DNA of 64,000 nucleotides from Octopus vulgaris (taxonomy: Eukaryota), in assembly GCA_951406725.2 (NCBI GenBank), contig OX597815.1, positions 210,366,001 to 210,430,000 on the forward strand. The letters are read 5' to 3'. Below the pieces are notes generated by a model. That model was not told the DNA's origin, did no database searches, and was given only the letters and a program-made list of their open reading frames with translations. Of the stretch, positions 3,114 through 60,611 are shown one piece after another (positions within the stretch are counted from its first letter, which is position 1; every line of letters begins with the position of its first letter). Both the position numbers and the translations under genes were made by a program.

Positions 3114-6100
3114 CTGACAGATCCCGTCTTTTTCCCTTTCTTTTCGTTTCCTTCTCCGTATTTTATTCTCATTATTTCGAACTAATACAGACACAGTAAG
3201 CCTTGAAGAAAGGAAGAGGAGGAAAGGAAAAAAAAAAAAAATGTCCGGAGATAAAACTATCAACAAAAAAAATACAGACGAATATAGATCTGCTAGTCTT
3301 AAGAAGCGGCGCTATGAGCAATGCTTACACGTAGTGAACCCTAAACTGACAGATCCATCTCCTAATATAAGAATGGATGCTCGTCATGCTTCAAGGTCAA
3401 CAAATCAAACAATAAACCGCATTGGTCATTGCGCGGATTACAAAAGACCACGTACCCGAAAATTGAACCAAATCCTGATTGAAAAATCAGTTACTGGATC
3501 AAATCTTCCCAACACACAGGAGCTGGACGAACCCCACAACCGGAATATTCCAACAGATGGCCATCCATGCTCATCACCAAATAATCAAAAGAAAAAGAAG
3601 GAAAAATGGTCTAGGGAAGATAATAAAGAAGTTCTTGAGGCCTTCTACCATGCCATATATTTCCCCACAGATAAGTCTAGCACTGTACAAGCATACTTAA
3701 ACTGGAGACAGAAACACCCTGAAGTAAGACCCTACATAGACAGTAACAAGCTTGCCAATGTTAGAAGAAACATTATAAAAAAGAAATTACTGACTGAAGT
3801 AGAGATTGATCAGGTTAGACAAGCAATATCGGATAAAATGAACGAAGCTGCAGCTAGAGAAGATAATACAGAGGAAATGATTATAGACCAGCCCAGGGCG
3901 GATAAAAACGAAGAGAGGATTGAAAGAGTTAGTATAAGTGATAGGCAAAGTGAAATACGCCCTGAACCAATCATAAACACTAAGACAGATGAGCATCAAA
4001 TAGATAAAGAAAGTCACACAAATATTGACCCAACAGAACTACATGAGCTAAAAAATCAAATCATGATTGAATGGCTGAAAATTAAAGAAACCAGTATGGA
4101 TGAGCGTGATACACTTCCTAAAATCCGCAACTCTAACCAAAACATGAAAATAATTGGTAAAATCCGGCTTGCACTTAAGGATATAATTTCAGTTAATGAT
4201 GTTGATATCACAAACCTCAACCACCTATACTATGCATCCGCGAAAATCTCAACGATCCTATGTGGTGTAAAGATTAGAAAACGGCAACAGTCCCACAAAA
4301 AGCCTTCTTGGCAAGAGCGTCTGCAACAACAAATTAAAATATTTAGATCTGACATTGAATATTTGAAAAACCTTAAGGCTCACAAGATTACCAAACCTAC
4401 AAAAACCCAAAAATTACTGAAAAAATACAATATGAAAACTATACTTGATATTGATGCCACCATAGAAACCATCAAACAAAAGGTATCTGCCAAAGCTGCC
4501 CGCATAGCGAGGTATGAAAAGCGTGTTAGATTTTTCAAGGACAACAACATGTTCAAAAATAACACCAAGAATTTTTACAGGAAGATAGGAAAAACAGCGT
4601 TTACTGCAGGGTCTGTACCATCAAAAGAAGAAGTGCAGAGATTTTGGAATAAAATCTGGGCAGAAGAAAAAACACACAACGAAAAGGCCCCCTGGATTGA
4701 CAGAATATCTACAGAAGAGCAAAAGTGGGAGGGTGTCAAGGTAGAAGATATAAGATCTGCTCTCAGGAGGTCAAGCAAATGGAAGTCTCCAGGAAAGGAT
4801 AAAATTCCTAACTTCTGGCTGAATGCCTTCCCAGAGAGCCATGAACTGCTAACAGAACTGTACAATGATGTTTTGCAACACCCTAGTAGGATGCCTCCTT
4901 GGCTAGTTAATGGGTTAACATTCCTGCTTCCAAAAAGTGAAGAAACAAATGAACCAAAAAACTATAGACCCATAACTTGCTTAACAACTATGTACAAAAC
5001 ACTAACATCTGTCCTGACGGAATATACCTATAGTTTTTTAACAGACAGCAGCATATTCCCTAATGAACAGAAAGGATGTAAACGTGGATCCTACGGCTGT
5101 AAAGACCAACTACTCATCAATAAGATGATCTTAGAAGATTGTCACAAACGACACAAAAACTTATCAATAGCCTGGATAGACTATAAAAAGGCTTTTGATA
5201 GCCTACCACATAGCTGGATTAGGAAATGCCTTGAAATGTATAAGATAGCACCAACTCTGCGAAACTTCTTGACTGTAAGTATGAGATCATGGAGAACCAC
5301 ACTAACTCTGAACAGTGACAGTGAATTCCTAAATGCTGGTGATGTAAAAATTTCGTGTGGCATTTTCCAGGGTGACTCACTGTCACCACTCCTCTTTTGT
5401 TTATCCTTAATACCTCTCTCAAAGCTGCTCAATGACGCGCAGTACGGGTATAAAATGTTTGATAAAAATATAAATCATCTCGTTTACATGGATGATTTAA
5501 AGCTTTTTGCAAAAAATGATCAACAACTCAAGGGCTTACTAGCGATAGTCAAACAATTCAGTGACGACATCAGAATGCAATTCGGCCTCGATAAATGTGC
5601 AAAGGCTACCTTTATCAAAGGAAAAATGACAGAAACATCTAACGTTAACCTTGACCAACAGAATGTCATAAAAGAACTAGACCCAGCGGAGAGCTACAAG
5701 TACCTAGGGATAATTGAAGGGAACGGAATAAGGCATTCAGAGATGAAGGAAAGGATCAGGAGAGAATGCTATCGAAGAGTGAGAGCAATACTCAAGACAG
5801 AGCTGAATGCAAGAAACAGGATCGAAGCAATCAATGCATTAGCTATACCAGTCGTGACTTACAGTTTCAATATTGTTAACAGGTCAATTACTGAAATATG
5901 TCAGCTCGACAGAAAAATAAGGAAACTGTTGACAATGCATAGAATGCACCACCCTAAGGCAGATACAGAACGACTCTATCTGCCAAGAAAAGAGGGAGGC
6001 CGTGGTCTTTTGCAACTGGCAATAACAATGAAGATTGCTACAATTGGCCTAGACACCTACCTGAAAAACTCTGAGGACTGGATGCTAAAACTTGTCTCAA

Positions 6101-7272
6101 AACATGAAAACAAGAAAGCATCATACTCAGTCACAAAACAGGCAAAGGAATATCTAAGTGAATTCCGAATACAACCAATTTCGGAGATAGATATACAAGA
6201 AACAAGCACAGAAAAAGCTAGGCGCATGAAAACCCGTGCCAAAACTGCGGCCTTAGATATTCTGAATAATAAATGGCAAGAAAAACCTCTCTATGGCAAA
6301 TACCCAAAGAGAGCGAATAATGCAGATATCGACAAAGCCCTGACCCATCAATGGCTAATGGCCTCTGGCTTAAAATCTGAAACAGAGGGGTTTATCATAG
6401 CAGCTCAAGATCAATGCCTACCAACAAGAAACTACCAGGCCAACATATTAAAGATCAGAAGCAGTCCAACGTGTCGTGTATGCAAGCAACAAAATGAAAC
6501 CATTGACCATGTGGTCTCCAAGTGCAGTCTTCTAGCGCCTACAGAGTATCTCAACAGGCACGATAGAGCTGCACAATATATTCACTGGGTAATCTGTAAA
6601 AACCTGGATTTGCCCCATGAAAAAAACTGGTGGGAACACAAACCACCCCCAGTGCTTGAAAATGACCACATCTCACTCCTCTGGAACTTCACCATTCAAA
6701 CTGACAGGAAGATAGATGCAAATAGGCCAGACATCATATTGAAAAACTTCAAACAAAGAACATGCCTCCTCATTGATATGACTGTCCCAATCGATATAAA
6801 CGTATCTGTCAAGACCTACCAAAACCTGAGCAAATATAAAGATCTTGAAATAGAAATCAGCAAAATGTGGAAGCTGAAGACTAAAACAATACCTGTTGTC
6901 ATAGGTGCCCTGGGAATGATAGCAAAAGGGGCTGATAGCTACCTAACTCAGATACCAGGAAACCCAAAAATGGCAGAAGTTCAAAAGATAGTGCTCATGG
7001 GAACTGCTCATATCCTACGCAAAATACTCTCTATGTAATCTCAAGGTTTAAAACAAACATAATTTTCGGTTTAAAAAAAAAAAAAAAAAAATTTTTTTTT
7101 TCTTTTTAGACATTCATTAGTACAACATCCCCACCCCCCAAATATATGGCACACTAGGCATAACAACAACATGAACTTCCAACCCTGTTGTCTCTTGAGG
7201 TCTCTGGGTGAGACTTGGAGCCAACTTGTACAAATATAAAGCAAAAGTCAAACATAGAATAATAATAATAAT
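3114..7272 (+). mobile_element. R4/Dong-clade non-LTR retrotransposon with restriction-like endonuclease, apparently full length
   Basis: Single long ORF and ~220-nt 3' UTR ending in (AAT)n at ~7258-7272. The 5' end follows a TAA-rich tract (..gtaataacaataataa). Dong-type elements are known to insert in TAA repeats. 5' boundary approximate. Confidence 0.88.
3241..7038 (+). CDS. Reverse transcriptase / restriction-like endonuclease polyprotein (1265 aa), uninterrupted
   Basis: RT motifs WKSPGKD, NYRPITCL, WIDYKKAFDSLPH, GIFQGDSLSPLLF, HLVYMDDLKLF, YKYLG, LYLPRKEGGRGL. C-terminal CCHC (CRVC..ETIDHVVSKC), RHD, RPDI, D..VP and KYKDL of the RLE domain. Confidence 0.95.
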   Translation: MSGDKTINKKNTDEYRSASLKKRRYEQCLHVVNPKLTDPSPNIRMDARHASRSTNQTINRIGHCADYKRPRTRKLNQILIEKSVTGSNLPNTQELDEPHNRNIPTDGHPCSSPNNQKKKKEKWSREDNKEVLEAFYHAIYFPTDKSSTVQAYLNWRQKHPEVRPYIDSNKLANVRRNIIKKKLLTEVEIDQVRQAISDKMNEAAAREDNTEEMIIDQPRADKNEERIERVSISDRQSEIRPEPIINTKTDEHQIDKESHTNIDPTELHELKNQIMIEWLKIKETSMDERDTLPKIRNSNQNMKIIGKIRLALKDIISVNDVDITNLNHLYYASAKISTILCGVKIRKRQQSHKKPSWQERLQQQIKIFRSDIEYLKNLKAHKITKPTKTQKLLKKYNMKTILDIDATIETIKQKVSAKAARIARYEKRVRFFKDNNMFKNNTKNFYRKIGKTAFTAGSVPSKEEVQRFWNKIWAEEKTHNEKAPWIDRISTEEQKWEGVKVEDIRSALRRSSKWKSPGKDKIPNFWLNAFPESHELLTELYNDVLQHPSRMPPWLVNGLTFLLPKSEETNEPKNYRPITCLTTMYKTLTSVLTEYTYSFLTDSSIFPNEQKGCKRGSYGCKDQLLINKMILEDCHKRHKNLSIAWIDYKKAFDSLPHSWIRKCLEMYKIAPTLRNFLTVSMRSWRTTLTLNSDSEFLNAGDVKISCGIFQGDSLSPLLFCLSLIPLSKLLNDAQYGYKMFDKNINHLVYMDDLKLFAKNDQQLKGLLAIVKQFSDDIRMQFGLDKCAKATFIKGKMTETSNVNLDQQNVIKELDPAESYKYLGIIEGNGIRHSEMKERIRRECYRRVRAILKTELNARNRIEAINALAIPVVTYSFNIVNRSITEICQLDRKIRKLLTMHRMHHPKADTERLYLPRKEGGRGLLQLAITMKIATIGLDTYLKNSEDWMLKLVSKHENKKASYSVTKQAKEYLSEFRIQPISEIDIQETSTEKARRMKTRAKTAALDILNNKWQEKPLYGKYPKRANNADIDKALTHQWLMASGLKSETEGFIIAAQDQCLPTRNYQANILKIRSSPTCRVCKQQNETIDHVVSKCSLLAPTEYLNRHDRAAQYIHWVICKNLDLPHEKNWWEHKPPPVLENDHISLLWNFTIQTDRKIDANRPDIILKNFKQRTCLLIDMTVPIDINVSVKTYQNLSKYKDLEIEISKMWKLKTKTIPVVIGALGMIAKGADSYLTQIPGNPKMAEVQKIVLMGTAHILRKILSM

Positions 7273-9672: not shown

Positions 9673-9905
9673 TACTCTTTACTCTTTTACTCTTTTACTT
9701 GTTTCAGTCATTTGACTGCGGCCATGCTGAAGCACCGCCTTTAGTCGAGCAAATCGACCCCGGGACTTATTCTTTGTAAGCCCAGTACTTATTCTATCGG
9801 TCTCTTTTGTCGAACCGCTAAGTGACGGGGACGTAGACACACCAGCATCGGTTGTCAAGCAATGCTAGGGGAACAAACACAGACACACAAACACACACAC
9901 ACACA

Positions 9906-9959
<54 letters not shown>

Positions 9960-10113
9960 TACGGCAGGCTTTTTTCAGTTTCCGTCTACCCAATCCACTC
10001 ACAAGGCATTGGTCGGCCCGGGGCTATAGCAGAAGACACTTGCCCAAGATGCCACGCAGTGGGACTGAACCCGGAACCATGTGGTTGGTTAGCAAGCTAC
10101 TTACCACACAGCC
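9673..10113 (-). mobile_element. tRNA-derived CORE-type SINE (family A) with internal (TA)/(TG) microsatellite and (AAAGAGT)n-type tail
   Basis: Reverse complement of the 60193-60611 copy: tRNA-like head, CORE-like cttgggcaagtgtcttc, tail aagtaaaagagtaaaagagta. Confidence 0.9.
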
Positions 10114-22859: not shown

Positions 22860-23072
22860 TTGAAAATTTGGCACAAAGCCAGTAGTTTTCTGGTAGCGAG
22901 TAAGTCGATTACATCGACCCCCAATGTTCAACAGGTGTACTTATTTTATCACCCGCGCGTGGATAAAAGGTAAAATCGTTCTCGAAGAATTCTAACTCAG
23001 AGCATAAAGACGAATGAAATACTGCTAAACATTTTGTCCGGCGTGCTGACGATTCTGTCAGCTCACCGCCTT
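22860..23072 (-). mobile_element. Diverged tRNA-derived Nin/Deu-domain-like SINE (family C)
   Basis: Reverse complement resembles 37923-38155 (head ggcgg.gagctgacagaatcgtcagcacgccgg; ggggtcgatgtaatcgactta). Confidence 0.75.
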
Positions 23073-37922: not shown

Positions 37923-38367
37923 AAGGCGGCGAGCTGTCAGAATCGTCAGCACGCCGGGCGAAATGCTCAACGGTATTTCGTCTGCCGCTACGTTCTGAGT
38001 TCAAATTCCGCCGAGGTCGACTTTGCCTTTCATCCTTTCGGGATCGATTAAATAAGTACCAGTTACGCACTCGGGTTGATGTAATCGACTTAATCCGTTT
38101 GTCTGTCCTTGATTGTCCCCTCCGTATTTAGCCCCTTGTGGGTAATAAAGAAACAGGGGAGCTTGCAGAATTGTTAGCACACCGGGAAAAAAATCTTAGA
38201 AACATTTTGTCCGTCTTTACATTCTGCGTTCAAATTCCGCCGAGGTCGATTTTACTTTTCAAACTTTCGGATTCGATAAAATAAGTTCCAGTTGCACACT
38301 GGGGTCGATGTAATCAATTTACCCGCTGTCCGAACTTGCGGACCTTGTGCCAAAACTTGAAACGAAT
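37923..38367 (+). mobile_element. Two tandem Nin/Deu-domain-like tRNA SINEs (37923-38155 and 38156-38367; family C)
   Basis: Each has a tRNA-like head, gttcaaattccgccgaggtcga and a cctttcatcctttcgg..cgat.aaataagt.ccag-type domain; the two tails differ. Confidence 0.85.
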
Positions 38368-40626: not shown

Positions 40627-40750
40627 CTAGGCATAAAGCCAGAAATTTTGGGATGAAGGGGCCAGTCAACTAGATTGGCTGCAGTGCACAACTGGTACTT
40701 AATTTATCGACCCCGAAAGGAGGAAAGGCAAAGTCAACCTCGGTGCAATT
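40627..40750 (-). mobile_element. Partial family C SINE
   Basis: ctggtacttaatttatcgaccccgaaagga.gaaaggcaaagtc matches the block at ~56011-56055. Confidence 0.75.
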
Positions 40751-48174: not shown

Positions 48175-50464
48175 ACCTCTCAGAGGTGTACTTTCAAATC
48201 CAGGTAGAGGAAGATTACACATAACTACAAACAATCAATACGCATCGTGGATTGTACAAGTCCAAACGACTACCGTTTGGAGTAAAAGTGGCACCCGCCA
48301 TATTCCAACAAATAATGCATGCAACGTTAAGTGGTTGCAATTTCACCGTCGCATACTTCGATGACAGTTTGATAAGGAGCGAGTCTTGGATGCTACATGT
48401 CGAACACATAATGAAAGTATTCGAGAGAATAAGTGAATGCGGGATAAAACTGACAGAAGAAGAATGGGAATTTTTGAAGGAAAAAAATGAAATACCTAGG
48501 TCAAGTAATCGACGAAAGTGGATGCAGACCGAACCCGACAATCGCGACGGTAATACGAAATATGCCCCCCCCTCCGTCGAACGTAACAATGCTTCCTAGG
48601 CTTCGTAAAAGATTACCAAGTATACATCCCAAATATACATATGGTAAAGGCACCACTTGAGGAATTATTAAAAAGAAAATGCCAAATGTGTTTGGACTGA
48701 GAAATGCCCGAAAGCATTTAATGAGTTAAAAGATGTGTTGACTTCAGACTTGTGTCTTACGCATTTCGACCCAAAGACTAGCTACAAATGCTAGCGATAG
48801 GAGCCGTGCTTCTACACAAGGGTAACGATGGCAGGAGAAAGGCCATAGACCACACATCAAGGACATTACTGCCGGCGGAAAAGAGCTACAGCCAGGTTGA
48901 AAAAGTGGTGTTGGCTATATTGTTTTGTTTTTTTTTGGCGTGCAAACGTTACACAGGTTCATTCACGGCCGATGTTTTTGGTTGCAAATGGACCATAGAC
49001 CTCTAATAAAGATATACGGATCCAAGAAAGGAATCCTGACACATACGGCAAACAGACTGCAACGGTGGAGTACTATTCTATTAAACTACGATTATAGAAT
49101 GGACTATATCTGTCATCAAAAAAGTTGAGGCATGCCAGTGGTCTGTCTAGTTTAATTACGACAAATAACAAACTACTGGAGGACACCGTAATAGCAGCCC
49201 TAAGGGCGGAAGTGGAAACAAAAAAAGTTATGCAGAACATCGTGTGTGATCTATCAGTAACTTTGGAAGAAATAAAAAGAAATGCAAAAAATGACAAATT
49301 TATTAATGAGACAAAAAGAAAACTGTGGTCGACAAAAGGAAATAAAGAAAGGTCTGATGCAAAGAATCGCCAAGGTGTGAGCGTGTACTCTGTATGTGAT
49401 GGTGTACTAATGCACGCTCGGAGGGTAGTCATACCACAAACATTACAGAAGAGAACGCTAAAAGAGTTCCATGTGGAACAACCAAGCATTTTTAGAATGA
49501 AAGCGCTGATGCGAAGTTTCGTATACTGGCGAAGCATGGAAAAGGAAGTTGAAAACCTGGTAAAAGGTTGCAGTGTAGATACACTGACAGCGAAACTACC
49601 AACTAAAAAATGTGAACTTAGGCCTGAAGTGAAAATACCAAGGTTCCGGTTGCATATTAATTTTGCAGGCCCGGTAAATGGATTTTCTTGCGTAATAGTA
49701 GTGGGCAGCTACACAAAATGGCCTGAGGTCGAGAAGTGTAAATGACTAACCTCATATACGGTAATAAACTTTTCTTACACGAGCCGTTTGCAAGATTTGG
49801 TGTACCGGATATAGTAAACGGAACACAGTTTGTATCCTGTGAGTTGAGAAGATACTGTGAGATTTTCACGTTAGATCATAAAACCATAGCACTGTACAAT
49901 CCTAGATCCAATGGAAGGACCGAACGGTTTGTAGACAGCTTTAAGAGAGCTTTAGAGAAAACTAATAAAGTAGCCATTGTTGATGTCTCGATCCAACAAT
50001 TCTTCAAGGCATACAGGGTAACTCCGAATCCAAATGCGCCAGAAGGAAGTCCACTTGCAGAATTAATGTTTGCCAGAAAATTTAAGTCAGTATTTGATAA
50101 ACTGTTAATAGGGAAGGAAAAAATACGTGCTAGTAAAGACATGCCAGTTTTTTTTAGAATCGGTGATAAGGTATATGTAAGAATGGACAAAAATGGCAAG
50201 CAATACTGGGAAGAAGGAGAAATTGTAACATACATAAGAAGAATGAGGTATGATATAAGAAGTAGAAAATGGAATGCAAAGGAGACATAGAAATCAGCTT
50301 AAGGAAAGAGTCATGGTAAAGGAACCAACAAGAGTAGAAATACTGATGAATTGGCTATATGACACTTTACAAGTCCCAACACTGTTACAAGAAGTGGAAA
50401 CCACACGTACAAAGAAAAGGAAGAACACTGAATTCCTAAAAGTAGATCCTAAGAAAGAAAGGAT

Positions 50465-50845: not shown

Positions 50846-52829
50846 GTCCCTAATGATAAGGTGTTTATAAACGTGTGTCGAGAAGACAGTCCCTAGTAAA
50901 TTTTCGGTTTCAATACTTCCTGATGCTTTTCGTATTATGAATTTTGTTTTCTATCACAAATTAAAGAGTAATACTGACCGAAGTAATCCTAATATTCGTG
51001 CATAAGCTACAATGACATTTTTTACATACTGAGCCATTTATCTCGGAATTCTAAATATTCCTTTGCAGCAACTCTCTTCTTCCTTAGTGTTAGATTTTAA
51101 ATTTCGCATCAAAGCGATTATTTTGTAGACAGTTTCTTTTATTATCTCAGACATCGCGCAAAGATTGGTGGTTTTCGTATATGGCAGCAATGGCTTTAAA
51201 AACCTTCTCCTAAGATACCATAGTTCAACAGGATATGTAACATGGCCTTTCTACTGCTATTATTACTATCAGCAGCTTCACGTATCTCAGATCTATGTTA
51301 TTAAGAGTAATAAATAATTTCTTACACGCGATGGACACGACAGGAAAGCTTGTAACAAGCTTCAAACCATTTGACATTAAAGGGTTTCCAAGTCTACAGT
51401 TCAGGTAATGAAGTATTCCCCTGAAGACGACATTTGAGGATCCTTGTCAATAATACCGGAAACTATCTCTGAAGAAGGAACTTTACGACGTGCCAGGCTT
51501 CTAATAAAGGCTAAAAACATCACAAAATCATACGAAGACATTCCACCCATCTCAGCTATTATTGTTCAACACAGAGAAGGTTTTGTTGGTCATTGGTATA
51601 ATGATGAACAACAGACCATAAAAACTTATATTACATTTTGGAGACATCCTCATTCTGGTAGAAGAGAAAAGCAATTCATCTACATTTTTGTTATTAGTAG
51701 AGACACAACAGGAAACTCAGGGACAAGCAAAACTAATGAAAACACAGATTTTTAGTGTAGCGTTGTACGTGAATTCTCGGTTGCGTCACTGGAACAAGAA
51801 TATATCATTGTAGGAAGAACGTGACACAACACAAGCAAATTGGCTTAATTTACTTAATAGAAAACTAGAGAAAGTTTGTCTCAATAAGCTAATGTCATAT
51901 CCTGAGTATTAAAAAAGTTATGTTGTTGTTTTTCACGCAGTATGAACATCAAGCAAATTGACAGCAAATATTTACTCACTCGGGCTTTTAAACCAACAAC
52001 CTTTTGCATTTAAAGTGAACAAATAAATATAATTAAAGTAAAACTTTTAGTATCACTAATATGCTTCAAAGTGTTTCAAGCTCAACTCCCCAAATTACAG
52101 CTTTCTCTCTATAATCCCTCCTTATTTCAAACACTCCTCTTATGAATACACTTATACTTCTCTCTTTCCCCACAATAATTCTAAAGACTTTAGTTCCTTT
52201 TAATGCGTTTTTAATTTTTTATTTTATTTTCTAATGTGTCCTTCCCCTCCGTTAATACCACTCCCCATCTCTCCTCGCGTAGTATTAACACCTACCTTAC
52301 AATTTCGTTCTCTGTTTAAAAAGCATAACATAAAACGCTTCATTTATCCCGTTCTCAATATTTCACATAGTAAAAAGCAAAGATCAATTTATAAGAAGAC
52401 AATAAAAACTTTGTTCAATATTTCTAGTAATTTTTGAGATTTGGTAGAAAAGCTGATGTTGTTATAAATATTATTTAGAGGAAATAATTTTTTCTCAATC
52501 TCCACAGCGACTATTAAGCTCAGCTGAAATATCCCACTATAAAATGTCCCTTTTCTAAAGGAGCAAAAGGAGTCAATATGTTGAAAAGGAACGTGTTAGC
52601 CTGGTCGTGACGTAATCAACTTTTGCATTTATATTTGAACCAGACAATATACAATATCAAACTACTCTACGACTAGTTTGTCCCATTTAATCCAGCATTC
52701 AAAAAATGTAAGGATACGTTATTTTGTCAAGGGATCTCACCACAAATCATTTAGAGGGCTCTAAATATTTCAATATGGATGTATGCAAGTATATATATAT
52801 ATATATATATATAAATATATATTTATATA

Positions 52830-53248
52830 GTGATGCATATATGCCATTTGAATATGGCTAACCCATAAGGGTGGATGCTACTGTAGGATGTAGCCCCAGG
52901 AAGACACCTCCTCCGCTGGCTATAGACACACTATCTGTGTCCTGTCAGTATTTGTGAAGGGGAGTCATCCTCCCCGTCTTCAACACATGATACACACGTA
53001 CCCGAGTCTATAGCCAGCGGGAGGAGGTGTCTTCCTGGGGCTACAAACTACAGTAGCATCCACCCTTAGGGGTTAGCCATATTCAAATGGCATATATGCA
53101 TCACGTTGTGTTACCGCTACTGTTTATAACTCGCTCTGAGATTTATCATTGTTTGATTTCACTTTTTCAATATCAGTGTCAAATCGACACTGGAAAAAGT
53201 ATATGTATTTGTGAAGGGATCTGACTTCTCGTCGACAACCATGATTGT
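52830..53248 (+). repeat. Left part of the hammerhead-containing unit: inverted copy (52830-53007), direct copy (53006-53153), unique part and TSD
   Basis: 52830-53007 is the reverse complement of 58849-59027, and 53006-53153 matches 58929-59076. Confidence 0.92.
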
Positions 53249-53476
53249 TATTCGTCCAGGGACCCCTCTTTCATCTGCGTTTTGAGAATTTTGCTGCCTT
53301 TTTGTTGAGTGAGTTCGTATTTTTTGTTCGTCGTTGTTTGTGTTACTCGTGAATTGAACAGTTGTCCGTTGTGTAACAGTAATTTTCGCCCTACGGGGCG
53401 GAAAATTCTGCGTTTAAGCATTGTCATTACCTTCGAGGTTTTTTTTTTTTAAACATTTGTTCTCATAATTTGAGAA

Positions 53477-54871
53477 ATGGAGTTCGACTTGGCGTCGAGG
53501 AGTGACTTTCCCGTGATGGGAAAAGGTGAACAAAAGGATACCGAAGTCAAAAAACAGTCTTTTTCGGCCGCAGTGGGCGGAACCGTAACGAATGTAGAAT
53601 TCAAGATTGAACAGTTATTTGAATACCGGAACTTGGTAAAAACGGAAGGCAATGAAATTAAACTGGTTCCGCCGAAAGCAAAGGTACAGGAAATAAAGGC
53701 AAAGACAGTTGTATACAAAGTTTATAGCAACAAAGAAAAAAAAATGGATGTCAAGAACGAGATAGTAGAAAAGTGCTTGTCCCCGGTGTGGAACAAAATT
53801 CGCCACGTTGTTCGAGGTGCTCGCAGCGCTACCGTTGAAGCACATTTCGACTCGGCTGATGTGGCAAGAGAGGTGTCATCAATGACCTTGAAAAGTGAGG
53901 ATATCATGTTGCTACCTTCGTATATGGGGAAAAGAACAGCCAAACTACATGTAGAGGATATACCAAGAGGGTATGATATAATGTGGGTAGCAGCGGCAGT
54001 CCTGCACAATGTAGAGCGGGAAGTTTCAATTCTGCAGATGAGAAGGAAAGAGGAGGTGCACTGGAAAGGACAAGCGCTAGAACTCCTCGTTCAAGCAGAA
54101 AATATGATACTAGAAAACTTACCCGATAGGGTATTTAATGAGGAGGGAATTTCAATGAGAGTGTCAGTGGAGGGGCGCAGACCTAGGTGCTTCAAATGTG
54201 GCGAAAAGGGTCACGTCCGCTCAAACTGCATAAAAAAAAGAAAATCAACGAAGCCCCTCCTCAAAGTGCTTCAAACACTGAAAAAGAAAAGGTGGAAAAA
54301 GAACCCAAGACTGCGACAAGGAAAGGAACCGAAACGGAAGATGAAAATGAACAGATGGAATATACACAGGTGACACACAAAAGAAAAAAGATAACACCCT
54401 GGACTCCCCTCCCCAAACAAAGAAAAAAATCAGCAAACACCGCAGAGATACATACAAAACAAATTCCCCAGCCCTACCCCCACGGCACTGTATTCATTGG
54501 AACACAGTTCGCCAAGCCCCTCCCCATAAAACAAGATTTGAAAAAATTGATAAAAAAAAATGAAAAGATTATAGCATTTGACGAGAAGAACGATAGGGTG
54601 TACAAGTATTTCAAATTTTCAAAATTTAAACTATTCAGTAAGTCTACAGACACAAAATCAACCACTCGCTTGAGGAAGACGAGTAGAAGGAAAAAACACT
54701 ACAAGAACATTTAAAGAATAATCTTATCAGAGATGTAACGAATGAAATACTGGAGGGTAAACTCATTATAACCCCGGCAACCACACCTACCCAGAGCCCG
54801 ATGGCAACGCCGGTTAAGAGCCCTGCAGCTACGACCACAAGGGAGGAAGAAGGGGAAGCAGGCAGATTTAA
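53477..54871 (+). pseudogene. ORF1 (gag-like, CCHC zinc knuckle), frameshifted
   Basis: SFSAAV motif and EGRRPRCFKCGEKGHVRSNC. Apparent frameshift in the A-run at ~54232-54244, continuing as ORF 54187..54714 and probably further; end approximate. Confidence 0.8.
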
Positions 54872-54926
54872 ACTGTCATGCTCCCTGTCCCAACCGTAAG
54901 TTTATTTATTTTTTCTCTCTCCGACA

Positions 54927-57900
54927 ATGGCAAAGCTGGGTTGTGTGAATGTGCGTGGAATGGGGTCGAAATGGAAACAAATTTGTTTCCTGAACGACCT
55001 CACGACACACGGAGTGGACGTAGCTATTGTAACCGAGTCCAAGATGAAAGGGGCCCAAGCGTTCTCGCCTCTTCTAAATGGTTTCGAGAAATTTATTTCT
55101 CCTAGCCGAGGAAGAGGAAGAGGCGTGGCAGTCCTTATCAGGAAGAGCTTGGACTTTCAGGTAAGTACTGTCTTTCTGGACCCAGAAGGCAGGCTTGTCG
55201 TTCTGGATGTGACCCACGTAAGTAAACAGTCCTTCGGGTTGGTAGCTGTCTACGCTCCGAATGAGTGTAGGCAGGCGGGTTTTTTTCGGAATCTGGAGCA
55301 CTTTTGAGCGACGTCGAAAACGGTAGTCTTAGTAGGGGACTTTAACACTGTCCTTGAAGCGCGGGTCGACAGTGTTGGCTCAACCAATAGGAAGGGGAAA
55401 CATAGCCTCAAGGGTCTACTAGAGAGCTTTGATCTAGTGGACCGTTATCGACTGGATGAGCCGGGCGTTCCACAGTGGACGTAGAGTAACAACGACGACT
55501 CACACAGATCGTATATAGATAGGATATTCGTTAGGAAAAGAGATAAGGATACGTTTAGTTGTCCACAGTTTCACATTGTGCCTTACACGGATCACAAATT
55601 TGTGACTTGTAGGGTGCAATTAGATAAGTGCCATAGACAGGGACCCGGGTACTGGAAGCTGAACAAGTCTATTTTGAATTGTGAAGACTTCCGTACCCGG
55701 ATTAAGGTGTTAGTACAGAGGGCATTGTATGGCACCACCATTAACAATAGATGGTGGCACTCCCTCAAAAGAGCCATTCGTTCAGAGTCCATTAGATTTA
55801 GCAATCAGCTAAGGTTAGATAGGTCTAGGATAGAGGACGATTTAGTTAAGAATCTAAACGAGGCAATGGAAGCTGGCTCTGCATCCGGAGTGATGGCGGC
55901 AAGGACGGTATTGTACCTATTTCTTTATTACCCACAAGGGGCTAAACATAGAGGGGACAAACAAGGACAGACATAGGTATTAAGTCGATTACATCGACCC
56001 CAGTGCATAACTGGTACTTAATTTATCGACCCCGAAAGGATGAAAGGCAAAGTCGACCTCGGCGGAATTTGAACTCACAACGTAACGCAGACGAAATACC
56101 GCTAAGCATTTCGCCCGGCGTGCTAACGTTTCTGCCAGCTATTGTACCGTCACCTTAACTCCAAACACGAAGCTTGCAGAGTTAGAGCTAAGCTACGCGC
56201 TGGGAAACGAGAAGGTATTAACGTTGCCGGATGGGCCCGTCGAGTGGAGAGTCAGAGAGGTAACAAAGCTTCAATCAAGTCTTTAACTGACGAACAGGGA
56301 CAATAGATCTATGGACAGGAGGAGATGCAAAAGTTTCTTCACCAGCATTTCGCCCGCGCGTTCGGGGGTGGTGTGGCGCCGGAGTGGGGGGGCCTTAAAG
56401 GACTTCCTAGCCGGCGGACCGCGGCTCTCGGGGCGTGAGGTGGAGTGCTGTGAAGGAGCGATCACTCCCGCGGAGATAGAGGGGGTACTGGCCGGATGCG
56501 CCGGGGAGAAGTCGCCGGGGTTGGATGGTCTGCCCTACGAGCTTTACCAAAGTATGCCAGACTTGTTCGGGGGAATATTGGCAGGCGTCTACGCGAACTG
56601 GCAGCAGAATGGGAGAATTCCCAGTTCTGTAAGCCGGGGAGTGGTGACGCTAATCCAGAAAGACCCGAGCAAGGGGGATAACATTAGTAATTACAGGCCC
56701 ATAACTCTACTTAACGTAGAGTTAAAGATTTTGGCCAAGGTGTTGGCAAAAAGGTTGACGGTTGTCGTGGAGAAACTTGTAGGGAAAGCACAGACATGTG
56801 CAATTCCAGGCAGGTCGATCCAGGACAATCTTCACCTTATATGCTACACCTTAGATAGGGTGGGTACATTAACCGGCAAGGGCGGGGTAATATCCATTTA
56901 GACCAAAGTAAAGCGTCCGATAGGGTAGACCATAAGTACCTGGCGACGGTCCTCGAAGCGGCTGGACTGGGCCCTGAATTTCGCGGGTGGATCTCCGCTA
57001 TGTATAGCGGCATCAAGTTCACCGTCCAGATAAACGGTTACCTAACGGAACCGTTTTCGATCGAATGTTCAGTTCGTCAAGGGTGCCCCTTGTCACCACT
57101 TTTGTACGTGTTGGCTTTCGAGCCATTGCTGCGAAAGTTGGAGAGGCTGGGAAGTAACTCGGATGAGATCGGAGGTGGGAGGACGGTTACTGCTTATGCG
57201 GATGACGTCACCCTCATCGTATCCAATGAGGCCCAGCTACCTTGTGTAGAAGATGCTATCAGAGGATACGAGGTGGTGGCAAGGAGCAAGGGTTAACAAG
57301 GACAAGTCGGTTGGCTTGCGCCTCGGCACCTGGAGGAGCAAGTCGATATCGTCCAGTGTCGTGGGACACTGGACGGATGGTCCTGTTAAGTTGCTAGGAG
57401 TTTGGTTTGGGTCAGACTCCCAAACGGAGAGGAATTGGAGTGAGGTGACGGACAAGGTGGAGGCCATAGTACGGACCTGGTCCGGAAGGACTCTGTCCTT
57501 GAAAGTAAGGGCGGAGGTGGCACAGATGTTTATTGCATCTGTAATCACTTACCGCCTGACCGCTGTCCCTTGCCCCGATTCATGGCTTAGCAAGTTGGAG
57601 CGAATCCTTTTCCGCTTTTTGTGGAAGGGAGGAAAGCCACTTGTGAGGCACTCCGTTTGCTGCCAGGAACCTTAAAGGGTGGGTTAGGAATGCCTTGGTT
57701 GATGATGCGCAGGCATGCGTTGAGGCTGAAGCATCTCTGGCACCACCTGGAGGGTGATAAGGTGTGGAGTCCGCTGGCAGGGGAATTTTTCCCGAGACCG
57801 GCTTCCTTAGTGAATTTTAAACCCGGTCGCATCAAAAGACGGAATCTGACTTTATGGCAAAAGGAGTGCCGACAGGCACTCACGCTGATCCACAAGGCGG

Positions 57901-58544
57901 GCAAGGCCGGCTGCGAAAATACCACCTCGGTATTTTATAGCAGGCTGGTAGAGGCAAAGAACGACGACGTCCTAGGAGGGGCTCTGGGGTTTGACGAAGA
58001 CCAGCTTACCAACCTGTTTAAAAAGACTTTCAGGACGGGGTATTTGGATAATTTCCAAAGATCCCTGGCCTGGCAGTGTTATAGGAATGCTTTACCTGTT
58101 CGCGAGAAGTTATCGCGGCACGGAATTTCAGTTCCACCGACGTGTCCAAGATGCGGGTTGGACGATGAAACCGTCCAGCACGCTTTTGTACACTGTCGGA
58201 AGTTGTCAGACTTGATAAGTTACGCAGAACACGTGTTATCGCATCTGGGACGAGTACAGCTGTCGGCTGAGTCTATGATTAAGATGATACCGCCAACTGG
58301 ACTCTCGAAGGAAGGTGAGGCATGTTTTCACTGCACGGTTGCAGTAGTAAAAGAATGCATGTGGCGTACAAGAATGGAAGGAGTCGCAATAGGATCCTTT
58401 GTCTCAGGCCCCGGCTTGCTCACTTACTTCAGATATCATCTGAAGAGCAAAATGGGGCTGGAAAAGAAGATCTTACCACGAAGTGTGTATGAAAAAAGAT
58501 GGAAGGAAGTGGCAAAAAAGGTGGGTGTCAGAAACCCTGCTTAA
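54927..58544 (+). pseudogene. ORF2: APE endonuclease + reverse transcriptase + C-terminal CCHC, disrupted
   Basis: APE: CVNVRG, VYAP, GDFN, YIDRI, TDH. RT: KSPGLDGLPYE, YRPITLLN, QGCPLSPLLY, YADD. C-terminal CPRC..ETVQHAFVHC. Contains stops, frameshifts and a SINE insertion. Confidence 0.9.
55918..56139 (-). mobile_element. Family C SINE inserted into Tx1 ORF2, 9-bp TSD
   Basis: TSD tattgtacc at 55909-55917 and 56140-56148; reverse complement matches 37923-38155. Confidence 0.9.
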
Positions 58545-58798
58545 CTATGATGGAGGAGAGGAAAGAAAATCTGCGGGGCCTTATAGGTTGCCGGGGTTTA
58601 AAATATATCGGTAAGATCGCAAGTTAATGTAATGTTGTAATGTTCTATTAGTCAATGCAAAGGACAATTTAAATACAAATTTTGTATAATGAATAATCCA
58701 AATATTATGGAAAATTTTTAATCGAACCACTTAACTGTTTTTTGTATGTATGTCCTGTATTGTCCTATGTAATGATTTTATAATCGTAATAAAGAAAT

Positions 58799-59076
58799 TC
58801 GTCGACAACCATGATTGTCACACGCTGATGAAAGGTAAACACCTTGAAACTCGGGTACGTATGTATCATGTGTTGAAGACGGGGAGGATGACTCCCCTTC
58901 ACAAATACTGACAGGACACAGATAGTGTGTCTATAGCCAGCGGGAGGAGGTGTCTTCCTGGGGCTACAAACTACAGTAGCATCCACCCTTATGGGTTAGC
59001 CATATTCAAATGGCATATATGCATCACGATGTGTTACCGCTACTGTTTATAACTCGCTCTGAGATTTATCATTGTT
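58799..59076 (+). repeat. Right part of the hammerhead-containing unit (retrozyme / Penelope pLTR-like)
   Basis: Contains the TSD, the hammerhead and the segments repeated directly and inverted at 52830-53153; ends at a TA tract. Confidence 0.85.
58819..58863 (+). ncRNA. Minimal type I hammerhead ribozyme
   Basis: Stem I CACACG / CGTATG (CGTGTG in the inverted copy); core CTGATGA (58825-31); stem II AAGGT-aaac-ACCTT; GAAA (58846-49); minimal stem III C-tcgg-G; GUA cleavage triplet with predicted cut after 58857. Confidence 0.85.
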
Positions 59077-59324
59077 ATATTTATATATATATATATATAT
59101 ACTTACATACATACATTAATCCTCCTTCCACCCTCCCTCTACAACGTTCCCGTATTTACTTACTTCTACTTTCTCCATCGTACTTTTCCTCCTCCTTTCT
59201 GCACGCCCTATCCTATAACTTATGTTTCACGTTAGCAGCCCGCATTATCCTGCACCCATTATCAGCTGCAGCCAGATTTTCAAGCTGAGAGGATGTAAAC
59301 TCTGACTTTCTTCTCTTTTTGTCT

Positions 59325-60192: not shown

Positions 60193-60611
60193 AGGCGCAA
60201 GAGTGGCTGTGTGGTAAGTAGCTTGTTTACTAACCACATGGTTCCGGGTTCAGTCCCAATGCGTGGCATCTTGGGCAAGTGTCTTCTACTATAGCCTCGG
60301 GCCGACCAAAGCCTTGTGAGTGGATTTGGTAGACGGAAACTGAAAGAAGCCCGTCGTATATATGTATATATATATATATGAGTGTGTGCATGTTTGTGTG
60401 TGTCTGTGTTTGACCCCTTAGCATCACTTAACAACCGATGCTGGTGTGTTTACGTCCCCGTCACTTAGCGGTTCGGCAAAAGAGATCGATAGAATAAGTA
60501 CTGGGCTTACAAAGAATAAGTCCCGGGGTCGATTCGCTCGACTAAAGGCGGTGCTCCAGCATGGCCACAATCAACTGACTGAAACAAGTAAAAGAGTAAA
60601 GAGTAAGAGTA
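60193..60611 (+). mobile_element. CORE-type SINE (family A), full length
   Basis: Head aggcgcaagagtggctgtgtggtaag...gggttcagtcc (A/B boxes), CORE-like block, tail aaaagagtaaagagtaagagta. Confidence 0.92.

What the first reader, a model, noticed from the sequence alone, without database searches (positions are those of the whole stretch)
52830..59076. Tx1-like LINE inserted precisely into the stem of a hammerhead ribozyme: candidate ribozyme-targeting retrotransposon
Seen: a full-length Tx1/L1-type element (53249-58798) has a perfect 20-bp TSD (tcgtcgacaaccatgattgt). Joining the flanks restores ...gtatttgtgaaggg-atctga-cttctcgtc-ga-caac-catgat-tgt-CACACG-[CTGATGA core], so the target is the 5' strand of an extended hammerhead stem I. 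Because the TSD is duplicated, the downstream ribozyme keeps 26 nt of that strand, and the predicted GUA cut (after 58857) lies ~59 nt past the LINE end. The LINE has no poly(A) tail. Established: Tx1-clade endonucleases are often sequence-specific for multicopy targets (U2 snRNA, 5S rRNA, tRNA spacers, microsatellites, other transposons). Inference: this family may target a multicopy hammerhead/retrozyme repeat as a safe harbour, and may gain a ribozyme-defined 3' end on read-through transcripts. I know of no described case, but a single insertion cannot show specificity.
Basis: partly seen in the sequence, partly recalled or inferred. Interest (0 to 1): 0.85.

Follow-up and report, generated by a model that had tools for sequence, protein, structure and literature searches.

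The report
LINE family targeting hammerhead ribozyme repeats
A clan of jumping genes in this animal genome inserts almost only at one spot just upstream of the hammerhead-ribozyme motif of short tandem repeats, likely using these abundant, self-renewing repeats as a safe landing site, which adds a new kind of target to a habit already known for this group of elements.

Summary
Observation confirmed; the targeting idea now holds on many copies. The window's decayed Tx1-like LINE (53249-58798, 20-bp TSD) sits in a 353-bp tandem type I hammerhead repeat (non-LTR retrozyme; 334 exact empty sites). Of 42 exact LINE 3' ends in the genome, 41 lie at this site. LINE copies differ by 2-3%, their flanks by 9-19%, and six 5'-truncated copies have their own TSD, so most insertions are independent. 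Sister families (84% and more distant) and a 1.6-kb ORF1-only element use the equivalent site in four retrozyme families, two without BLAST similarity. One sub-lineage moved to the 5' end of U2 snRNA genes, carrying a 14-nt retrozyme relic. The ribozyme-defined 3' end is not the normal route: 22 of 22 off-target copies carry no ribozyme sequence; 1 of 104 on-target junctions stops at the cut site. Self-cleavage, expression and strict Tx1 membership are untested or unresolved. Tx1 elements targeting other transposons are known; nine paper searches found no ribozyme-repeat target. This scan noted an analogous case in a vertebrate genome (unchecked).

The parts
52790..52829 (.). (TA)n microsatellite, left flank of the whole retrozyme insertion
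   Evidence: most empty retrozyme loci show the same flank
52827..53007 (-). inverted, 5'-truncated copy of the retrozyme monomer (Penelope-type inverted arm)
   Evidence: 97% to 58849-59030
53006..53228 (+). upstream partial retrozyme monomer (positions 131-353), type A, ending at the inferred nick
53229..53248 (+). 5' target-site duplication
53249..58798 (+). Tx1-like LINE, full extent, decayed; no poly(A) tail
53477..54896 (+). ORF1, gag-like with CCHC knuckle, frameshifted here; 478 aa open in copy L074
54927..58544 (+). ORF2, APE endonuclease + RT + zf-RVT, broken here; 1129 aa open in copy L070
55918..56148 (.). later 231-bp insert of a very high-copy short repeat, with a 9-bp duplication (55909-55917 / 56140-56148)
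   Evidence: absent from the other copies
58788..58793 (+). AATAAA, 5 nt before the LINE end
58799..58818 (+). 3' target-site duplication = start of the 5' strand of extended stem I
58811..58869 (+). type I hammerhead motif: bulged stem I, core 58825-58831, stem II, 2-bp stem III with self-complementary tetraloop, predicted cut after 58857
58799..59082 (+). downstream retrozyme monomer (positions 1-284), ending in (TA)n

Best explanation
This is a dead copy of a Tx1-like LINE family whose members sit at one fixed site in the 5' strand of extended stem I of hammerhead-bearing tandem repeats, likely because its endonuclease nicks there and the repeats likely serve as a dispensable, self-renewing landing site. 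Steps: (1, shown) the target is a 353-bp tandem type I hammerhead repeat with Penelope-type inverted arms in (TA)n. (2, shown as junction position; inferred as a nick) insertion starts at a TCRTC-like word 26-36 nt upstream of the core and 21-25 nt downstream of the base of a long inverted-repeat rod. (3, shown) the new copy ends at the element's own last base with no poly(A), on and off target; (inferred) ORF2p starts reverse transcription at that point of its RNA. (4, shown) TSDs of 13-20 bp; (inferred) a second nick that far downstream. (5, shown in several copies) donor target sequence of 14 to at least 70 nt appears at the 5' junction; (inferred) the RNA is co-transcribed from the retrozyme and joins by homology, as in R2, which would tie each sub-lineage to its own retrozyme family. 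(6, predicted) the intact downstream ribozyme would cut read-through RNA 59 nt past the end, but that end is rarely what gets copied.
For: 41 of 42 exact 3' ends on target: 39 run straight into a hammerhead repeat and 2 into TSD plus another LINE (read by eye). 52 of 59 with more distant copies included. Mean pairwise LINE distance 2.0% (n=17) and 3.0% (n=19) against flank distance 9.2% and 18.5%; LINE distance between target types equals that within types (0.020 vs 0.019; 0.030 vs 0.030). Locus-private target variants occur on both sides (L061, L077, L131, L149). Six 5'-truncated copies, each broken at a different point, have their own TSD (L113, L135, L136, L138, L142, L308). Tandem stacking at one site (L142, L128, L148, L134, L184). 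Inverted arms with an empty site beside a filled one (L074, L075, L141). Sister families: 28 of 40 on target; ORF1-only element: 24 of 30. Helices covary: 93.8% of cells paired, 8 of 17 pairs with two-sided changes, 0 of 500 shuffles as high.
Against: The shared sequence word is short and degenerate, so what is recognised is unexplained. Five copies of a close subfamily (L079, L116-L119) lie in a non-hammerhead context and five sister copies lie at U2, with no consistent change seen in the endonuclease stretch inspected (residues 165-232). LINE and flank distances correlate weakly in subfamily 1 (r 0.18, Mantel p 0.015), and L352 has the LINE in both inverted arms (0.6% apart), so some copies probably moved with the repeat. 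The 5' carry-over tracts could be gene conversion. Some counted copies are likely duplicates of one event (L065/L066, L196/L197, the U2 array). No nick, transcript or cleavage was observed.
Confidence: 0.85

Rival explanations
1. The LINE entered a retrozyme once or a few times, and the composite was spread by Penelope-type machinery as cargo, so the uniform flanks are inherited, not chosen.
For: L352: Penelope-type inverted insertion with the LINE in both arms, ending at monomer positions 232 and about 280 like empty double-armed loci. Weak LINE-flank correlation in subfamily 1. L351 is a cut-site-to-cut-site unit.
Against: Flanks are 5-6 times more diverged than the LINEs, and no correlation in subfamily 2 (r 0.04, p 0.39). 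Truncated copies have fresh TSDs; near-identical LINEs sit in families B and D, which have no BLAST similarity. Several separate LINE families share the site.
Confidence: 0.05
2. The LINE depends on the host ribozyme: read-through RNA is cut 59 nt past the end (and at an upstream monomer), and this processed RNA is the obligatory template, its retained target sequence pairing with the nicked site.
For: No poly(A) in any copy examined. The ribozyme is left whole downstream. L351: the monomer starts at the first base after GUC and stops exactly at GUC. Three type A/B repeat copies leave the consensus right after the triplet against none at a control position 4 nt further on; one of the three may be a small deletion. 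R2 offers a precedent for 5' ends (PMC3774820, abstract).
Against: 22 of 22 off-target copies carry no ribozyme letters at the 3' end. The U2 sub-lineage occurs at two chromosomes with no ribozyme downstream. Most filled loci lack a complete upstream hammerhead. In L351 the LINE may have inserted after the monomer was captured. Stem III is 2 bp, and such motifs may need dimers (PMC4209133, PMC7229834, passages).
Confidence: 0.12
3. The element reads a structure, not a sequence: the long inverted-repeat rod extrudes as a cruciform or forms an R-loop when the retrozyme is transcribed, and the endonuclease nicks at a fixed register on it. This is a variant of step 2 and is compatible with the rest of the best explanation.
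For: Four retrozyme families of little or no sequence likeness are hit at the equivalent place; A, B, C and D all fold as a long rod with the site inside it, 21-25 nt from its base.
Against: A TCRTC-like word is shared by A, B, C, some D sites and loosely by U2 and several off-target sites; U2 has no such rod; distance to the core varies from 26 to 36 nt.
Confidence: 0.25
4. The hammerhead half is simply the LINE's own 3' UTR and there is no targeting.
For: Nearly every 3' end is followed by it.
Against: The upstream flank continues the same repeat; 334 exact empty sites exist; off-target copies such as L078 have a clean 13-bp TSD and no hammerhead.
Confidence: 0.01

Closest known systems
Tx1 of Xenopus laevis (into Tx1D) and crocodilian Tx1-Mar (into Mariner-N4_AMi), Tx1-9_AMi (Harbinger), Tx1-8_Crp / Tx1-4_AMi (LTR elements); PMC4494074, passages and section 15
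   Same: APE-type LINE that inserts at a fixed site in another multicopy mobile element, with TSD and tandem stacking, and mobilises non-autonomous dependents to the same site.
   Different: Target here is a ribozyme-bearing RNA-derived repeat; several unrelated target families are hit at an equivalent structural position; about 30% or less protein identity to fish Tx1 proteins.
Keno (Tx1 clade) and Utopia (RLE), U2 snRNA-specific; PMC4640811, passages
   Same: One sub-lineage of the sister family sits in U2 genes.
   Different: Keno and Utopia leave U2 from nt 39 downstream. Here the TSD spans about nt -3 to +14 and a U2 matching model positions 1-192 remains downstream; the main target is not U2.
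R2 with HDV-like ribozyme; PMC3774820, abstract and outline
   Same: Site-specific LINE likely co-transcribed with its target, carrying upstream target sequence into uniform 5' junctions, with a ribozyme at the junction.
   Different: R2 encodes its own ribozyme at the 5' end and uses an RLE endonuclease. Here the ribozyme belongs to the target, lies 3' of the element and is a hammerhead.
Metazoan non-LTR retrozymes / Penelope pLTRs; PMC7229834 and PMC4209133 (passages), bioRxiv 10.64898/2026.07.22.740005 (first part and passages), PMC8557442 (passages)
   Same: Tandem ~350-bp repeats with a type I hammerhead; 5'-truncated, inverted arms, 30-50-nt tail on one arm, (TA)n flanks.
   Different: The passages read mention no LINE that targets them; no autonomous Penelope partner with this repeat was found among 30 GIY-YIG loci.
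HAL1 (half-L1); PMC5753468, passages
   Same: The 1.6-kb W element encodes only an ORF1-like protein (31% to this ORF1, no ORF2 hit).
   Different: Related to a Tx1-like family in a non-mammalian genome and target-specific.

Membership tests
Tx1 clade | ORF2 with APE endonuclease, RT and C-terminal zinc finger | tested here: met
   PF03372, PF00078, PF13966 on L070 ORF2
Tx1 clade | separate gag-like ORF1 with CCHC knuckle (diagnostic value recalled) | tested here: met
   PF00098 at aa 238-252 of L074 ORF1; no other family listed
Tx1 clade | RT phylogeny inside the Tx1 clade rather than L1 | tested here: inconclusive
   Quick IQ-TREE, 62 rows (careful search unfinished): own lineage (99) and fish Tx1-type proteins (99) are separate branches of an open fork that also holds Zepp; no vertebrate L1 row was available. 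Scores: 254-310 bits to 8 of 9 fish proteins, 172 to the ninth, 220 to human L1 ORF2p, 207 to Zepp. That the Q76IM entries are described Tx1 elements is recalled.
Tx1 clade | sequence-specific insertion into a multicopy target with TSD | tested here: met
   41 of 42; TSD 13-20 bp
non-LTR retrozyme (target) | 150-450-bp non-coding tandem repeat with one type I hammerhead per unit | tested here: met
   spacing 352-353 bp; RF00163 in each of 5 units of L173
non-LTR retrozyme (target) | expressed as linear and circular monomers | not testable with these tools
   no RNA holder listed; contigs only
non-LTR retrozyme (target) | derived from the pLTR of an autonomous Penelope-like element | tested here: inconclusive
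   0 of 30 GIY-YIG loci (of 148 matches) resemble monomers B, C or D; 16 show a different minimal hammerhead-like motif. Insertion anatomy is Penelope-like.
type I hammerhead ribozyme | conserved core and three helices with covariation | tested here: met
   16 sequences, 17 pairs, 93.8% paired, 8 pairs with two-sided change; structure drawn from these sequences; several rows carry core substitutions
type I hammerhead ribozyme | self-cleavage at GUH | not testable with these tools
   indirect only: junctions at the triplet in L351, L387, L388
Keno | insertion between U2 nt 38 and 39 | tested here: not met
   U2-associated copies insert at the U2 5' end; the window family is not at U2
R2-type ribozyme-bearing LINE | element encodes its own self-cleaving ribozyme | tested here: not met
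   the hammerhead lies outside the element and off-target copies lack it; no Rfam hit at gathering score in the window; no dedicated search for an HDV-like fold was run

The most novel reading that the evidence does not exclude
A LINE clan has become a parasite of ribozyme parasites: it finds unrelated retrozyme families by the shape of the hammerhead rod, is transcribed from their promoter, is cut out by their ribozymes as a cut-site-to-cut-site RNA (L351), can ride their Penelope machinery (L352), and used carried-over target sequence to jump to a new U2 site. With the scan's vertebrate note, hammerhead repeats would be a recurrent target class for Tx1 elements across animals.
Probability: 0.2. 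Interest if true: 0.85.

Novelty: new variant of a known kind. Interest (0 to 1): 0.64.

Why it matters
It adds catalytic-RNA repeats to the targets of site-specific LINEs and gives a natural series in one genome: several LINE lineages, four retrozyme target families, a retrozyme-to-U2 switch whose direction is marked by a 14-nt relic, and off-target copies, all with nearly the same endonuclease. That makes an open question testable: how APE-type LINEs achieve and change specificity (protein, RNA-DNA pairing or target structure). It also yields genomic footprints of in vivo hammerhead cleavage and a three-layer dependency (Penelope-like helper, retrozyme, LINE with ORF1-only satellite).

Tried and rejected
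Rfam at gathering score: no hit in the window or in 12 loci; none for the window hammerhead at E up to 10. Expression: no RNA holder listed. Four contig runs under four organism codes cover 30 of 30 bins; one contig (X2 record 32, 58573-58828) crosses the 3' junction by 30 nt, one short of the tool's bridging rule; contigs cannot show RNA ends. Penelope partner: one Pfam accession was absent from the library; GIY-YIG loci showed no match. Relatives elsewhere: 80 metagenome loci (best segments 24-37% identity) gave 1 weak motif hit, but the filter (stem I of 4 bp or more) would have missed the window's own hammerhead, so this blank is weak. No named close homologue. The 3' end of the W element at L351 was not found within 20 kb, so the order of events there is open. 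The automatic classifier was too loose (it called all 42 on target); the 39/2/1 split is by eye from its printout. The careful tree did not finish. For one search, 15 short or internally deleted copies were left out of the tree, and L078, L122, L128, L148 and subfamily 3 out of the distance sets. Literature: nine searches listed no paper on a LINE targeting hammerhead repeats. Repbase, subscription papers, bioRxiv supplements and Fig. 3 of PMC4494074 (which lists 'Sat' satellite targets that could be unrecognised retrozymes) were not seen. The host taxon was not tested; a cephalopod guess was used only to aim searches.

Full report
The observation. The 20-mers at 53229-53248 and 58799-58818 are identical. 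Between them lies a 5.55-kb LINE that ends 5 nt after AATAAA without poly(A). Downstream follow 26 nt, a hammerhead core (58825-58831, 58846-58849) and the triplet GTA (58855-58857), so the predicted cut is 59 nt past the LINE. The region folds better than all 200 shuffles. The window copy is dead: ORF1 and ORF2 are frameshifted with stops, and a 231-bp insert interrupts ORF2. Other copies keep long open frames: a 1129-aa ORF2 with endonuclease, RT and zf-RVT, and a 478-aa ORF1 with a CCHC knuckle.

The target. A 33-nt pattern spanning the uninterrupted site matches 334 times in the 2.8-Gb assembly, control 0; tandem matches are 352-353 bp apart. The 30 empty loci fetched (some overlapping) show 5'-truncated monomers, inverted arms, 3' ends near monomer position 236 or 280, and mostly (TA)n flanks. 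This is the anatomy described for Penelope-like insertions (PMC8557442, passages) and the size and motif of non-LTR retrozymes (PMC7229834, passages). Rfam Hammerhead_1 matches each of five units of L173 over the whole model (E 1.3e-5, just under the gathering score). Over 16 natural variants the helices are 93.8% paired with 8 two-sided changes, above all 500 shuffles and all slid controls; the structure was drawn from these sequences. Stem III is 2 bp with a self-complementary loop, as in canonical metazoan motifs, which may need dimers (PMC4209133, passages). No autonomous Penelope partner was found.

Specificity. An exact 23-nt pattern for the LINE 3' end, blind to the flank, gives 42 places. 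By eye, 39 run into a hammerhead repeat at the same register, 2 into the TSD and a second LINE, and 1 (L078) is elsewhere with a 13-bp TSD. With 17 more distant copies the count is 52 of 59. The six extra misses are one rearranged copy and five copies of a subfamily, excluded by the pattern, that lie in a different context.

Independence. Mean pairwise distance of the last 1.25 kb is 2.0% in subfamily 1 and 3.0% in subfamily 2, against 9.2% and 18.5% for the flanks; between subfamilies 4.4% against 29.7%. Locus-private target variants appear on both sides of the element. Six truncated copies with different break points have their own TSD. Against full independence: a weak LINE-flank correlation in subfamily 1 (p 0.015), and L352, where both arms of an inverted insertion hold the LINE.

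A clan, not one family. A sister family 84% identical, with relatives whose 3' ends are 74-78% alike, has 28 of 40 3' ends at the equivalent site, 5 at U2, 5 elsewhere and 2 unscorable. A 1.6-kb ORF1-only element has 24 of 30 there. The targets fall into four groups (A/B, C, D, E). B and C are 73% alike; B and D have no BLAST match; E was classed by eye. The junction lies 26-36 nt upstream of the core and, in A to D, 21-25 nt inside a long rod. The RT tree groups these families with high support beside unnamed relatives but does not resolve them against fish Tx1-type proteins.

The U2 switch. Five sister copies abut U2 genes (Rfam), four on C3 and one on C23. The TSD is 17 bp, about U2 nt -3 to +14, not the nt-39 site of Keno and Utopia (PMC4640811, passages). 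All four full-length copies carry, between TSD and LINE, a 14-mer that matches the C-type retrozyme TSD at 13 of 14 positions. The switch therefore likely ran from retrozyme to U2, and donor target sequence can travel at the 5' end. L074 shows the same on a larger scale: an A-type locus whose last 70-107 upstream bases are B-type. Mismatched TSD pairs at L111, L134, L139, L319 and L351 point the same way. Gene conversion is an alternative for these tracts.

The ribozyme's role. If the cut RNA end were the usual template end, off-target copies would carry 59 nt of hammerhead. None of 22 does (1 window family, 5 subfamily 3, 5 sister family, 5 U2, 6 ORF1-only). Of 104 on-target junctions (52 + 28 + 24, some sharing a locus), one stops at the cut: in L351 the host monomer starts at the first base after GUC and ends exactly at GUC, joined to a truncated ORF1-only element. 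The LINE may have entered that monomer afterwards. Genome-wide, three A/B repeat copies leave the consensus right after the triplet, against none 4 nt further on, a small hint of cleavage in vivo.

Verdict. Site-specific insertion is about 97% likely; the full mechanism as stated about 85%; obligatory use of the ribozyme about 12%. Tx1 elements that target other transposons are known (PMC4494074, passages and section 15), so this is a new variant of a known kind. Nine searches found no LINE described as targeting hammerhead repeats; Repbase and subscription papers were not seen. An unchecked note of this scan (e1-7851921) reports a Tx1 element at a hammerhead-bearing Penelope tail in a vertebrate genome; I could not test it.

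Noticed in passing
window 3241-7038 (+), partial second copy 48-974: Open 1265-aa ORF with RT and zf-RVT directly after (TAC)n(TAA)n; a C-terminal motif looks like a restriction-like endonuclease (R4/Dong-type, recalled), a microsatellite-targeting LINE.
   Followed up: partly
window 55918-56148; 37932-38157, 38160-38321, 40664-40750, 22901-23063; similar pair 9686-10113 / 60205-60600: Very high-copy short repeat (likely a SINE), often in short tandems, with far higher depth than the LINE in all four runs.
   Followed up: partly
window 49073-50290: Degraded ORFs resembling an LTR-retrotransposon integrase region; not scanned.
   Followed up: no
L311-L315 (C3:20.78-20.84 Mb, C23:43.31 Mb): U2 snRNA gene array with sister-family LINEs at the U2 5' end, separating intact U2 sequences from their upstream DNA.
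   Followed up: yes
L079, L116-L119: Subfamily 3 sits in a non-hammerhead context sharing a 13-nt word; another LINE-like family begins at the same word in L116 and L118; two loci lie beside ORFs that look like C2H2 zinc-finger genes. Target unidentified.
   Followed up: partly
L302:154-1752, L356-L385: 1.6-kb ORF1-only (HAL1-like) element, stacked in tandem at the hammerhead site of C, D and E retrozymes.
   Followed up: yes
L387:1485-1680: 35 nt of hammerhead ending exactly at GUC, between a (TAA)n run and sequence resembling the RLE-type LINE (by eye); would fit a template jump onto a cleaved RNA.
   Followed up: partly
L327-L350: GIY-YIG elements, many with 781-aa open frames (likely Penelope-like), carry an AT-rich minimal hammerhead-like motif unrelated to the targeted retrozymes.
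   Followed up: partly
L353:4030-4060: One inverted retrozyme arm starts at the inferred nick position, 9 nt from a truncated LINE on the opposite strand.
   Followed up: partly
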